DNA from: Eledone cirrhosa
Lineage: Eukaryota
Direction: 5' to 3'
DNA length: 64,000 bases
NCBI GenBank assembly: GCA_964016885.1
Contig: OZ024750.1
Span: 44,640,001 to 44,704,000, forward strand
The position numbers and the translations under genes were made by a program. Below the pieces are notes generated by a model, which saw only the letters and a program-made list of their open reading frames with translations, was not told where the DNA came from and searched no databases. Below are positions 15,063-31,829 of the stretch, piece by piece (position 1 is the first letter of the stretch; the number at the start of each line of letters is the position of its first letter).

Positions 15063-15589
15063 GTCAGACAGTTGGAACTGGCTGATTAGATTCTTGAGGC
15101 TTTTGCACCCCCCGCTCCTATCGGATACTCCCACACAGTCCCAGCGTGCGTCTAAGATGCCGTTCCAGTCCCCCGTTAACAGTAAAGGGCGATACGTACC
15201 CAGAAAAGCTTCCAGGCGCCTAAAGAAGTCCGGCCGTCCTGCCCCAGTAGGAGCATAGACGGCCACCAGTCTAAAGGCACCACCTTCGTTATTGTTCACG
15301 TCCAGGTCCACCAACTTCCCGTCCAGGTCCCGGAAGATCGACCTTACCTCGAGATCCAGGCCTTTCCTAAACAGCACTACCACCCCGCCTCCCATTCCGG
15401 CCGGCTAACAGATGCAAAGATCTGATAGTCTTCGGAAATGGGGGCTAGTGCGCGCGTGTCGGAAATCCTGGTCTCGCTGACTGCAATTACATCCATTTCT
15501 ATAGACCTGAGGTCGTTGAGCAGGTGACCCTGCTTCCAGGACGATCCCAGGCCTCGAACATTTAAACATCCTACTCTTAATACGGCCAT
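15063..15589 (-). pseudogene. ORF2 5' fragment (APE endonuclease), frameshifted and truncated
   Basis: LNVRGL..VSETRI in one frame and GGVVVL..VYAP..GDWN in another. Confidence 0.9.
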
Positions 15590-15620
15590 GTTGGCAGGTT
15601 AAACAGAGAGAGAGGAATGT

Positions 15621-17579
15621 TTACTTACCTTCCGGGCTCTTGTGAAGGTCGGGTTGTTCGACCTCCATAGTTGGTGGGGTTTCTTTTGGGAAGCCCTTTA
15701 AAAGTCTTGAAGTGGGTTTTACGTTCGGGGTTCCCACGTCCCGAAGAAAGCTGTCTCGTATTTCTTTGAATATGTCGAGCGACATTCGCACCAGAACCAA
15801 ATCTTCCGGAACGCGAAATGTGCTCGATTTAAAAATTTCCCCCTCTTTTTGTATATTTTCACTTCGTGCTACGAGGGCCATCAGTTCCTTGCTGGCCCTC
15901 CTGACGAGCACGAAGTTTTGTATGTTTTGTTGGTGTGAATTTATTTGTTTGCGTGGCTGTGGTGGTGATGGTTGTGGTGGTGTTGTTTCGGTTGTATCTG
16001 TGTTTGTTGTGAGTGCGGTGTCTGTGGTTTCAGATGTTTGTGTGTATATTTGTCCTTGCGTCTGTTTCGGTTGTTTGCGTTTGGGGAATTCTGGTGATGG
16101 TGATGGTAGTGTTATTGGAGAGATGTTTGCGTGGGTGGTGTCTGCGTTTTTTATTGTGGGTGCTTTTGCGCTTTGTTGAGTTTTTTTTTCTTTTTGTGTT
16201 TCCTTTTTTGTATTTTGGGGTATTTTGTTTTTCCCTCATTTTCACTACTGTTAGATGAGGGGTCTGTGTCTGTAAGTGTGTCTGTATGTATGTTTATGAT
16301 TTTATTGGTGTGTGTATTTTTTGGGGGAGGGGCAATTTGACAGCTTTCCTCGTTTCCCCCCTGGGTGGTCAATGTTGGTGGTGGTCTTTCTATTGGTGTT
16401 GTTGTTAGTGGTTTTGCCGGTGCTGGTGTTGGTTGTGGTCCTCGCCCCGGCGTCGGCAGCAGTGGAGCCTTTCGACCCCTTGCCTCTTTCAGGAGTTGAG
16501 GGCAGAAGGCTTGCAAATGGGTTTTTTCCCCACAAACAAAACACTGCGGCCTTTTGCCTTCGGCCATAATGTGAATGAACGTCCCATTCTGAAGGCGGAT
16601 GTGGTCCGGGATTGTTTTCACATTCTCGGGCCTGATCTGGAGAAGGATCTCCAGGTCAACAACGGACCAGTCCTCTCTGGCCGTTCTGGTCACTTCTATA
16701 GGGACGGTATCCGTCCCCTCCATAATCAGACATCCCAGAAGCCATCACATGTCAAGTCCTGGTGGGATTCCGGGAATGCGGAGACGGGCTGTTCGTTTTC
16801 CCATGTGGGAGGGGTACATTATGACCTTGCTGGTTTTGCAAGGAGTCAGAGCGTGTTTCATAGCGAGGGCTTCTGACTTGAACAACACCGAAATGGGGCC
16901 GTACTGTCTGCCTCTCTCTATGTACTGGGTGTCTTCTCTGATGCACCTCAGCGCGACTTCGACATCTTCTTGTGGGATTAAAGCTGCCCATTTGATTTGT
17001 GCTGAGATGCTTCTATAATGCACCGTTCTGCGCTCCACTGCCTCAATAGCTTCTACCGGGACAGTTAAGTTGGCCCAGGTTTGCTCTTGCTTGATGAGCT
17101 TCCATGCCTGGGCCAACTTTTCATCTTTGTTTGAGAGGTCCATGTTGAAGCATGGCCTCTTTTTTGCTGCTGCCGCAGCGAAAGTGTTCTTCTTGTTTTC
17201 GTTGGGGGTGCTGTTGTCGTTGTTCATGTTGGTGTTGTTGTTATCACTGTCGCTGTTATCATTGTTGTCTTTGTTGCCACCGTTGTTCTCGGTGCAGTGG
17301 GTATTGTTGCTGGTGGTGTTGTCGCTATCTGTTTTCATGTTAGTGGTGTTGATATTGTTGTTGTATTTGTTTTTTGCTATCCGTATTTTCGTTGTCGCTG
17401 TTATTGTCATTTCTTTCAAAATTAGAGTTCTCATTGGTATCATTGGTGTCTTTGTTTACCCTGTTTGTGGTGGTGTTTGTGTTATCAATGTGTATTAATT
17501 TCGTTGTAGCGCTCCTCTCAACTTCTACGTCGTTGTCGCACGACAGCCGACATATTGCTGGGGGGCGTGGCTCAGCCAT
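15621..17579 (-). pseudogene. Disrupted ORF1 with CCHC zinc knuckle
   Basis: MAEPRP start, CFVCGEKTHLQAFC, ..PEGK end; in-frame stop at about 16745 plus frameshifts. Confidence 0.9.
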
Positions 17580-17784
17580 GTTTGTTTTTTTTTTATTTTT
17601 TTTAACATGTAAAAAAAAGTTCAAATATTTGGGCCAAAAGGCCCAAATATTATACTTTCCCCTTCACGGGGCAAAGTCTACGGGCTTATATACCTTACAC
17701 AACAAGAAATATTTAACAACAAATAATTTTAACAGGCAAATAAAGCGACTTACTGTGAGCGAGCAAAATACGTCCGCTTAGACC

Positions 17785-29298: not shown

Positions 29299-29333
29299 GT
29301 TTAAAATAGAGTGGAAAAGATGGGAAAGACCAC

Positions 29334-31428
29334 TTACCGTATTTTTGGTAGAGGAGGGATGGTTTTTACATCCCTTTTCACTTGATCGTCTGGTGAAGGG
29401 ACCGTTGAATCGTCCCTTCGGCTGGTCGTCGGCTCTTCTAAGAGAATGTCTGAATATACTCTTCGATTAATGGTTCCTCCTAGGTCCCTGAAATCACCAA
29501 CTGCGTTGGGGAATTTCGTTTTAATGTTTGTGTATTGTTTCTGTGCTATTTTTAGCAGTCTTATGTTAGTTGGCGTTTTGATTGGTGCTGGTATTATGTA
29601 GTCCTGTTGTGAAATGTCTGTGTGTTCAATTATGTAAGTCATTAGTTTCTTGTTGTGTGTGTTTATTGCCGTGCATTTGTTTTTCTGGGGGTGGGGTGTG
29701 GTTCTGCTATTTTCTTGTCGTTGTTGCTGGGTGTGTGTGTTTTGTTGTTGTGTTTGCGATGTTGGTGCTTGTGGTGGTGGTGTTGAAGGTGTTGTTGGCG
29801 GTGGGGTTGTCGCCGGTGGTGATGGTGGTGCTGGTGTGGGTGGTGATGGTGTTGGTGGTGTTGCTGCTGTGGGTCTCTTTGCAGTAGACTTTACCCTTTT
29901 CTCATTTCTTTCCTCCCTTTTCAAAGGCGACGATGCGCTGCTTCTGCGTTTGTGCCTTCTTGAGACCTTTTGCCATCCCTCTCCCACCTCACACTCCATG
30001 TCTGATTCTGTAAGGTCGGGGAGGGGTACCAGCTCCACTCTTTCACTTGTTGTTGTTGGTGATGTTTGCACTGGAGTCTCTGTTGCAGCTGCATTTGGTA
30101 TTGCTGTTGTTGTTGTTAATATTTCCACTGCTGCTGCTGTCTTTGATTTCCGTGGAGTGGGTATGGGTGCCACGGACCTATCGTTCCTGGTTGCCGCTTG
30201 TCCTGTTGCTGGTAGCCGTGGAACCGGATTCGGGAGGAGGGGGGTTTTCTCCTTTCTCAGGGTCTTCTCGTTGCAGAAGGCCCTGAGGTGAGTCTTCGAT
30301 CCACAGCGAAAGCATTTCGGGCGTTTGCCCTCAACACTTATGGGCAGTTGAGTGCCGTTATCGAAGTCTATCACATCCGGGATAGCTTCGATGCACTCCT
30401 GGTTGGTTTGGATTAGCATCTCAATGGAGGAGCCGACCCAATCTTCTCTTACTTTTTTCTGTACTTGCAGTACAGTTGTTTTGTCCTCGATTCCGACGAG
30501 GACAGACGCGGCCAGCCAAGAAGGGGTCATTCCGGGGGGGGACGTGGGTCAGTTTGACCCTCACAATTTTTTGCCCGCAGTAGGAGGGCACCAACACCAT
30601 TTCCTCGCTCCTTAGGGTCACTATTGATTGGGCCTTTGCCTCCTGGGGTGTGGCAAAAAGTACGTCTACGGTGGCGTATTTTTTGCCTCGGGTGATGTGC
30701 GTTTTCCTCTGCCACACAGACCCCAAGGCTTTTTGTATTTGGGCCTCTGTGGCTCTTTCCACCCTACGGGATTTTGTACTTACTGTACGGTACGTGACCG
30801 TACAGTGCTCTTGGGTTTCGAAAAAATTTTTCGCTGCCTTGCAGATTGCTCGGTGTCCGTTCTTTGTCACCATCTTCTTCGCTTCCTCTAATTCCTCATT
30901 TGTTATGAGGATTGTTTCCAGGTTTTTCGCAATACCTGCAAATGAGATTGGTTTTTCTCTGCTGTTGTTGTTGTCGTCAGAGCTGCTGGTACTTTTGTTG
31001 TTGCTGCAGGTACTACGACTACTGCCTCCGCCGCTGTTGCTGTGGTTGTTGTTGGTGTTGCTGCTGCTAATGCTGTTGTTGTTTATGCTGCTGGTGATGC
31101 TGTTGCGGCTGCTACTGTTGTTTTCATTGTCACTGTTGCTGTTGTTATTACGGCTGCTACTGCTATTATTCCTGACGTCAGACGAATGAACTGGGTTTTC
31201 GTATTTCCCGCACACCTGTTTCGTCGCTGTCGTCGTCGTGGAGAAACCTTGCACGCTTTGCACGAGACTTTTCTTTTCTTTCGTCACTTGCGAAAGAGAA
31301 GGGAGGGAGAGAGACACATTTAAAGAAGGGAGGGAGAGAGACAATCTTCTCTCTGCTGTAGTGATGATTGAGGAAGAAGAAGACGGAATGAGTGGGAGTG
31401 ACGTATGAAATTTCTTTTTCGTAGCCAT
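29334..31428 (-). pseudogene. ORF1 with +1 frameshift in a homopolymer
   Basis: G8 at 30534-30541 versus G7 in B1; may be a sequencing error. Confidence 0.75.
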
Positions 31429-31829
31429 GTTGTTTTTTGTTTAAAATGAAATTTTGGGTACAAAACCCCAATAACTGGTTATTTAACCCCGAAGGGCCAA
31501 ATAACGGACTGAAAGACCCCTCTCACGAGGAGGAGGGTGTCTTTATCAACAATTTGGTTCAAGTTTTAAACAATTTACAATTGTTTTAACGGTTAAAAAT
31601 TACTATACCTTACAGAGCCGAGCCTCCGTCAACCATGGCATTCAATAATAATAATAATAATGATAATAATAGAACGAATAATTATATGAATAATAACAGT
31701 AACTATTATTGTTATTTTTATTATTAGAAATGGAAGAAAAGTAACAATAAAAATGATAACAAAGACAATAAATTAATTAGTCCGCTTCTTTGCCAATTTC
31801 AGCACCATTATGATATTAATGAGAGGTTG

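What the first reader, a model, noticed from the sequence alone, without database searches (positions are those of the whole stretch)
15063..31694. One (AAT)n site colonised by two unrelated retrotransposon classes in opposite orientations
Seen: C, D1, D2, B1 and B2 are contiguous over about 16.6 kb and separated only by AAT tracts (17785-17820, 18581-18596, 19503-19538, 25565-25615). APE-type elements always read (ATT)n on their sense strand, whereas the RLE-type fragments read (AAT)n. Established: Dong/R4-clade elements insert in (TAA)n repeats. Inference: APE and RLE endonucleases have converged on the same microsatellite but nick opposite strands, turning it into a multi-family landing pad.
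Basis: partly seen in the sequence, partly recalled or inferred. Interest (0 to 1): 0.7.

Follow-up and report, generated by a model that had tools for sequence, protein, structure and literature searches.

The report
Two retrotransposon classes share AAT repeats
Two unrelated kinds of jumping gene sit in opposite directions on the same three-letter AAT repeat, here and at hundreds of other places in this genome, likely because their enzymes cut opposite strands of it; seeking out simple repeats is a known habit of both kinds, but this pairing was not found in the papers searched.

Summary
Real and genome-wide. The 16.6 kb holds three APE-type, L1/Tx1-like LINEs (C, B1, B2; minus strand) and two 3' fragments of an RLE-type, R4/Dong-like LINE (D1, D2; plus strand), joined by AAT-rich spacers. 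Elsewhere in the genome, 75 of 78 full-length APE 5' ends follow (ATT)n and none (AAT)n; 20 of 24 RLE 5' ends follow (AAT)n and none (ATT)n. There are 668 opposite-orientation tail-to-tail junctions and no true same-orientation tail-to-head junction. Empty copies of a host repeat already carry the ATT run, so tracts are real targets. The symmetry is incomplete: truncated RLE copies still abut AAT runs (38 of 57), but truncated APE copies often do not (6 of 16), and a 39,000-copy SINE with an APE-like tail lands at a bare ATTAT. The APE machinery therefore likely needs only a short motif and brings its own ATT units, feeding targets to the RLE family. Nicked strands are inferred, not measured. 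Precedents: SART/TRAS (opposite strands), Keno/Utopia (APE and RLE, one site), Dong (TAA). The scan noted this pairing before at two other places in this genome. New variant of a known kind.

The parts
15063..17784 (-). Element C: 5' 2.7 kb of an APE-type L1/Tx1-like LINE (5' UTR, broken ORF1, start of ORF2/APE); 3' half lost
   Evidence: 81-82% to element A; Exo_endo_phos E=3e-4; best full copy fetched 94.9%
17785..17824 (+). (AAT)12 tract between the 5' end of C and the truncated 5' end of D1 (head-to-head; cannot be a 3' tail of either)
17825..18580 (+). D1: 5'-truncated RLE-type LINE fragment (CCHC finger, RHD, PD..D..K motif, 3' UTR)
   Evidence: translation; motifs in full-length relative; best fetched relative 94.4%
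18581..18597 (+). AAT tract between D1 and D2; matches the first 16 nt after D2, compatible with a target-site duplication of D2
18598..19502 (+). D2: second, independently truncated RLE-type fragment
   Evidence: 93.6% to D1; other copies extend beyond its 5' end
19503..19538 (+). Degenerate AAT spacer, tail-to-tail between D2 and B1
   Evidence: junction type found 668 times genome-wide
19539..25564 (-). B1: full-length APE-type LINE, ORF1 (CCHC knuckle) and ORF2 (APE-RT-zf) both open
25565..25615 (+). 51-bp spacer (AAT)6 plus AT-rich sequence; first copy of the direct repeat flanking B2
25616..31643 (-). B2: full-length APE-type LINE, ORF1 frameshifted, ORF2 open; identical to B1 over its first 758 aligned columns, 39 substitutions after
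31644..31694 (+). Second, identical copy of the 51-bp direct repeat; right edge of the cluster
32992..64000 (+). Outside the given coordinates: six head-to-tail copies of APE-type family A (5.8 kb each; the sixth ends beyond the window) joined by (ATT)n, same class rule on the other strand

Best explanation
This is a pile of five retrotransposon copies of two classes lying in opposite directions on one degenerate AAT tract, likely built by successive insertions whose endonucleases would nick opposite strands. Shown: the RLE family reads (AAT)n at both ends and the APE families read (ATT)n at both ends, genome-wide, and tracts exist before insertion. Inferred from target-primed reverse transcription: the RLE enzyme nicks the ATT strand of a multi-unit tract and primes on an RNA ending in AAC/AAT units; the APE enzyme nicks the AAT strand after 5'-ATAAT-3' (a T/A step in the cases read), primes on an RNA ending in AUU, and makes a 10-19-nt duplication that starts with ATTAT. 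Inferred: the APE machinery needs only that short motif, so it and its SINE also land outside tracts, while full-length APE RNAs likely carry ATT units at the 5' end that anneal to, or are added to, the target. Each insertion thus preserves or adds repeat units that the other class can use. Likely order here: C, then D1 and D2, then B1, then B2; B2 probably gained its 5' part and the 51-bp duplication by homologous copying from B1.
For: 5' ends of full-length copies: APE 75 of 78 ATT, 0 AAT; RLE 20 of 24 AAT, 0 ATT; background 0.9%. Position-ordered A/C set: 16 of 19 full-length, all 16 after ATT by eye. Truncated RLE 38 of 57 AAT, 0 ATT; truncated APE 6 of 16 ATT, 0 AAT (full vs truncated APE p=2e-7). 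3' ends: 1,853 A/C and 10,696 D exact tails; of the first 100 listed, about 95 and 100 continue in the class-specific repeat, by eye. Junctions 668 vs one non-head match. Host repeat R: 1,772 matches vs 5 control, first 30 all empty and ATT-bearing; filled with R on both sides in L172, L175, L324. SINE: 39,048 heads; 19 of 26 mapped copies have a duplication of 10 nt or more, all 19 starting ATTAT or CTTAT; only 5 of 26 have an ATT run of 9 nt. A second RLE lineage (about 40% amino-acid identity to D) and a further APE head obey the same rule. 39 fixed-position 10-kb stretches: 20 tracts, 8 with a labelled family end, none in the wrong sense.
Against: No nick was measured. No empty allele of this locus was found (uninformative), and its left flank is lost. 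Direct evidence for RNA-borne 5' ATT units is thin: 2 of 52 full-length copies (L182, B1); most sit in pure runs where it cannot be read. Some of the 16 'truncated' APE copies may be later deletions or other families sharing a 3' end, which would understate tract preference. 19 of 57 truncated RLE copies lack an adjacent 9-nt AAT run. Most loci were best matches or neighbours, not a random draw. The 668-vs-0 comparison has unequal denominators (tails outnumber heads; the tail pattern misses A/C tails). The pattern that defines repeat R itself holds three ATT units (a further run lies beyond it in 29 of 30, by eye). No 5' ribozyme was found by Rfam.
Confidence: 0.75

Rival explanations
1. Symmetric convergence: both endonucleases recognise multi-unit AAT/ATT tracts, and all flanking repeats are pre-existing target.
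For: Full-length APE copies follow ATT runs in 75 of 78 cases; truncated APE copies are still enriched over background (6 of 16 vs 0.9%, p=8e-9); repeat R shows pre-existing tracts being hit.
Against: 10 of 16 truncated APE copies and 21 of 26 SINE copies lack a 9-nt run and show duplications starting at a bare ATTAT; L182 and B1 have ATT units inside the duplication boundary. The SINE argument rests on its being moved by these APE elements, which is inferred from a similar 3' end only.
Confidence: 0.15
2. Priming, not cutting, sets the polarity: both classes use any nick in AT-rich, breakage-prone repeats, and only nicks whose 3' end pairs with the element's own repeat tail (AUU or AAU) are extended.
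For: Both classes end in repeat units matching their flank; this alone predicts opposite orientation and ATTAT-starting duplications.
Against: Both classes keep intact endonuclease motifs; long AAT runs upstream of truncated RLE copies lie outside the primer; endonuclease swaps move target choice in SART/TRAS (PMC7265360, introduction). Not excluded as a contributing step.
Confidence: 0.07
3. Tracts are only element-encoded tails, and clusters arise by passive accumulation, tandem duplication or assembly error.
For: D carries a conserved AAC/AAT tail; B1/B2 share their first 758 columns and neighbouring A5/A6 differ at 2 sites, so local copying does occur.
Against: Tracts lie at 5' ends and between head-to-head elements; empty R copies carry them; B2 is closer to copies on other chromosomes (23-25 substitutions) than to B1 (39); D1 and D2 differ by 6% with different truncation points.
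Confidence: 0.03

Closest known systems
Dong (R4 lineage; Bombyx mori, Anopheles, Biomphalaria)
   Same: RLE-type single-ORF LINE in TAA repeats, read TAA on its sense strand (PMC3812793 and PMC3774820 passages). Dong-R4 is reported as recently active in Octopus vulgaris (PMC13282606 Table 1).
   Different: Here it shares tracts with APE families and a SINE; at least 10,696 exact tails. PMC3812793 lists Dong among APE elements, whereas PMC3774820 places it in the R4 lineage.
Tx1-clade microsatellite targeters Kibi (TC)n, Koshi (TTC)n, crocodilian Tx1 (TTCC/TTTC)n
   Same: Two-ORF APE LINEs that prefer a microsatellite, form tandem insertions and move a SINE (PMC4494074 passages).
   Different: An (ATT)n target is not named in the passages read; the preference here seems to rest on a short ATTAT motif.
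SART and TRAS in (TTAGG)n of Bombyx mori
   Same: Two families in opposite orientation on one tandem repeat, on opposite strands (PMC7265360 introduction).
   Different: Both are APE elements of the R1 clade (clade recalled) and telomeric; here the two enzymes are unrelated folds and the target is dispersed.
Keno (APE) and Utopia (RLE) in U2 snRNA genes
   Same: APE and RLE elements evolved the same target in parallel (PMC4640811 passage).
   Different: Same site and same 3' flank in a gene, not opposite strands of a microsatellite.
R2 elements whose RNA carries upstream 28S sequence
   Same: Target sequence on the RNA 5' end gives precise junctions and occasional extra target copies (PMC3774820 passages): the model for the 5' ATT units proposed here.
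   Different: R2 uses an HDV-like ribozyme; none was detected here by Rfam.

Membership tests
Tx1 clade (L1 group), elements A/B/C | Two ORFs; ORF2 = APE + RT + C-terminal zinc finger | tested here: met
   Pfam Exo_endo_phos, RVT_1, zf-RVT; motifs
Tx1 clade (L1 group), elements A/B/C | ORF2 closer to L1 than to R2-type proteins | tested here: met
   Best solved-structure match human L1 ORF2p E=1e-52 vs R2 1e-21
Tx1 clade (L1 group), elements A/B/C | ORF1 with CCHC knuckle (feature recalled, not from a call) | tested here: met
   One CX2CX4HX4C in ORF1 of A and B
Tx1 clade (L1 group), elements A/B/C | Target-sequence preference | tested here: met
Tx1 clade (L1 group), elements A/B/C | RT phylogeny within Tx1 rather than L1 proper | not testable with these tools
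   No named Tx1 references among homologs; the name Tx1 is a best guess
R4/Dong clade, element D | Single ORF with RT, CCHC finger and PD-(D/E)xK restriction-like endonuclease | tested here: met
   1135-1141-aa ORF; RVT_1; motifs; best solved match R2, including the nuclease stretch
R4/Dong clade, element D | No N-terminal C2H2 fingers, unlike R2/NeSL (feature recalled) | tested here: met
   No C2H2-like pattern in the first 450 residues
R4/Dong clade, element D | Insertion in (TAA)n | tested here: met
R4/Dong clade, element D | RT phylogeny within R4 | not testable with these tools
   Homologs unnamed
R4/Dong clade, element D | 5' HDV-like ribozyme as in Bombyx Dong | tested here: inconclusive
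   No Rfam match in full-length copy L206; no dedicated motif search was run
SINE moved by the APE elements | 3' end shared with partner LINE and same insertion signature | tested here: inconclusive
   Similar last ~25 nt and same ATTAT-starting duplications; similarity short, not scored; ARAGORN found no tRNA in 4 loci

The most novel reading that the evidence does not exclude
A self-feeding guild: APE LINEs and their 39,000-copy SINE seed and lengthen AAT repeats at bare ATTAT motifs by carrying ATT units on both RNA ends, RLE LINEs then occupy them from the other strand, and new APE copies can finish integration by copying the 5' part of a neighbouring copy, giving 50-57-bp duplications and chimeric tandems. 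This would make retrotransposons a main source of this genome's AAT microsatellites and of its element hotspots.
Probability: 0.3. Interest if true: 0.65.

Novelty: new variant of a known kind. Interest (0 to 1): 0.45.

Why it matters
It gives a natural, high-copy pair of unrelated endonucleases on one three-base target, so strand choice and the share of cutting versus priming can be tested with young, intact copies (B1; several D copies with 1141-aa ORFs). It offers a sequence-level cause for clustering of Dong-R4, L1-Tx1 and SINE copies, which the octopus repeat paper read here reports as active families and hotspots without using the word 'target'. About half of the AAT tracts in a small fixed sample touch these families, which matters for anyone using AAT microsatellites as markers. 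Each ingredient has precedent, so it is not a new principle.

Tried and rejected
Empty allele from public runs: laying four runs on the whole cluster was swamped by repeat copies; laying four runs on the right flank skipped the repeat part and showed no joint; the best-holding runs may be the assembly's own sample, so nothing is drawn from them. Clade naming by homolog names failed (unnamed). Rfam found no ribozyme or relevant RNA; ARAGORN no tRNA in the SINE. First attempt at D's 5' end used a copy truncated in its UTR and was corrected. Simple tandem duplication of B1 to B2 rejected, though a shared 5' part shows local copying. The strict rule gave only 1 of 11 short A/C alignments after ATT; three of these were other families sharing a tail, so the count was redone (cut-offs: start beyond nt 700 for APE or 1000 for D, 150 nt, 85%; seven window-overlapping loci excluded; L316 listed twice and counted once; truncated copy L170 fell under the cut-off). 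Xiong and Eickbush 1993 was not held. PMC2881922, PMC4824008, PMC4758252 and PMC8967140 passages held nothing on this pairing.
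Full report
Setting. The window is G000:C10:44640001-44704000 of a 3.0-Gb animal genome. Its size and the active Dong-R4, L1-Tx1 and SINE families resemble an octopus (my inference; compare PMC13282606, first third of the text and passages read).

Observation. B1, B2 and the neighbouring A copies have ORF1 with a CCHC knuckle and ORF2 with APE, RT and zinc finger, closest to L1 ORF2p among solved structures. C is the 5' 2.7 kb of a relative, cut inside APE against another repeat. 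D1 and D2 are 3' fragments of a single-ORF element of about 4.55 kb and 1141 aa with RT, CCHC and a PD..D..K nuclease, closest to R2. The B1/B2 spacer is a 51-mer repeated exactly on the other side of B2.

Orientation genome-wide. Exact tail patterns give 1,853 A/C ends and 10,696 D ends, with 0 and 2 control matches. Of the first 100 listed, about 95 A/C tails continue in ATTAT or a one-base variant and all 100 D tails in AAT/AAC units (counted by eye; script count 25 of 30 for the A/C loci). Tails could be element-encoded, so 5' ends are the real test. Among all loci fetched to that point, minus seven overlapping the window, full-length 5' ends follow an ATT run of 9 nt or more in 25 of 25 A, 15 of 16 B and 35 of 37 C copies and never an AAT run; D follows AAT in 20 of 24 and never ATT; background is 47 of 5000 for each. 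These loci are mostly best matches or neighbours; in the position-ordered A/C set, 16 of the 19 long copies were full-length and all 16 follow ATT (by eye). The D2/B1 junction type occurs 668 times; the same-orientation D-tail to APE-head pattern matched once, and that match is not a head. Denominators differ, as tails outnumber heads. In 39 fixed-position 10-kb stretches, 8 of 20 (AAT)4+ tracts had a labelled family end, none in the wrong sense; two more were recognisable by eye. A second RLE lineage and another APE head follow the same rule.

Target or tail. A dispersed host repeat R (1,772 exact matches, 5 control) carries an internal ATT run in its first 30 copies, all empty (the pattern holds three ATT units, and 29 of 30 have a further run). 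A copies sit in that run with R on both sides in L172, L175 and L324, and a B pair follows R in L335/L350. So tracts pre-exist. But part is element-borne: a D subfamily keeps the same AAC/AAT tail across copies. And the classes differ. Truncated D copies abut AAT runs in 38 of 57 cases; truncated APE copies abut ATT runs in 6 of 16, above background (p=8e-9) but far below full-length copies (p=2e-7). Several truncated copies show plain 10-16-nt duplications starting ATTAT (L053, L063, L170, L281). A 185-nt SINE with 39,048 exact heads and an APE-like 3' end shows the same: 19 of 26 mapped copies (30 loci) have a duplication of 10 nt or more, all starting ATTAT or CTTAT, and only 5 of 26 have a 9-nt run. 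In 2 of 52 full-length APE copies with both ends, L182 and B1, ATT units lie between the duplication and the 5' end, as expected if the RNA carries them; the rest are pure runs and uninformative.

Mechanism. By target-primed reverse transcription (established knowledge) the first nick is on the strand opposite the element's sense strand, so D would nick the ATT strand and the APE families the AAT strand. I infer that D needs a multi-unit tract, that APE needs a short motif plus pairing with its AUU tail, and that full-length APE RNAs carry ATT at the 5' end, as some R2 RNAs carry upstream 28S sequence (PMC3774820 passages). Divergence from the nearest fetched copies (C 94.9%, D1 94.4%, D2 93.2%, B above 99%) fits the order C, D1/D2, B1, B2. 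B2 differs from B1 at 39 sites but from copies on other chromosomes at 23-25, so it is not a plain duplicate; yet B1 and B2 are identical over the first 758 columns with one private variant. L335/L350 repeat this: a 57-bp duplication, identity over 5,206 columns with 12 private columns, 11 differences after. L354/L355, with a pure ATT spacer, do not. A new cDNA annealing to the neighbour and copying its 5' part plus the spacer explains both; unequal crossing-over, gene conversion or assembly error would too (n=2).

Known systems. Dong targets TAA (PMC3812793 passages); Tx1-clade Kibi and Koshi target TC and TTC (PMC4494074 passages); SART and TRAS take opposite strands of TTAGG (PMC7265360 introduction and passages); Keno (APE) and Utopia (RLE) share a U2 site (PMC4640811 passages). 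Ten full-text searches found no account of an ATT-oriented Tx1 family or of this pairing. Kojima and Fujiwara 2004, Repbase and all supplements were not seen and could hold it. The scan's notes e1-9592150 and e1-9513955 describe the same pairing elsewhere in this genome; they are unchecked AI notes and not independent support.

Verdict. New variant of a known kind; interest 0.45.

Noticed in passing
window 32992-64000 and L386: Six head-to-tail A copies in an (AGT)n field, joined by (ATT)6-8. A1 is closer to copies elsewhere (4-8 substitutions) than to A2 (11); A5 and A6 differ at 2 sites but at 21-24 from A1-A4: mixed insertion and local copying.
   Followed up: partly
L335/L350 (G000:C3:126649500-126662200) and window 25565-31694: Tandem B pairs with 57- and 51-bp duplications that end at the neighbour's 5' end, and with identical 5' parts.
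   Followed up: partly
L356-L385: 185-nt SINE, at least 39,048 copies, ending like the APE elements, ATTAT-starting duplications; heads also form tandem arrays of about 45 nt (L371-L373).
   Followed up: partly
L226-L255: Unidentified dispersed repeat R (at least 1,772 copies) with internal TG, TA and ATT runs, repeatedly hit by A and B.
   Followed up: partly
L065, L072, L393 and others: Second RLE lineage (about 40% amino-acid identity to D) ending on AAT runs, and an APE family with a different 5' head on a B-like ORF2 (up to 97% in L336).
   Followed up: partly
L187-L204 vs window 32992-38767: Families A and C share the same 3' end but have different 5' heads, suggesting 5' UTR exchange.
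   Followed up: no
L140-L144, L154-L161: A D subfamily has a duplication of about 320 nt in its 5' UTR.
   Followed up: no
window 1-14750: Very AT-rich, with long TA, ACAT and GA microsatellites and two 100-nt N gaps in the window overall (200 N); the AAT run at 10347-10379 has no element at its ends that I recognised.
   Followed up: no
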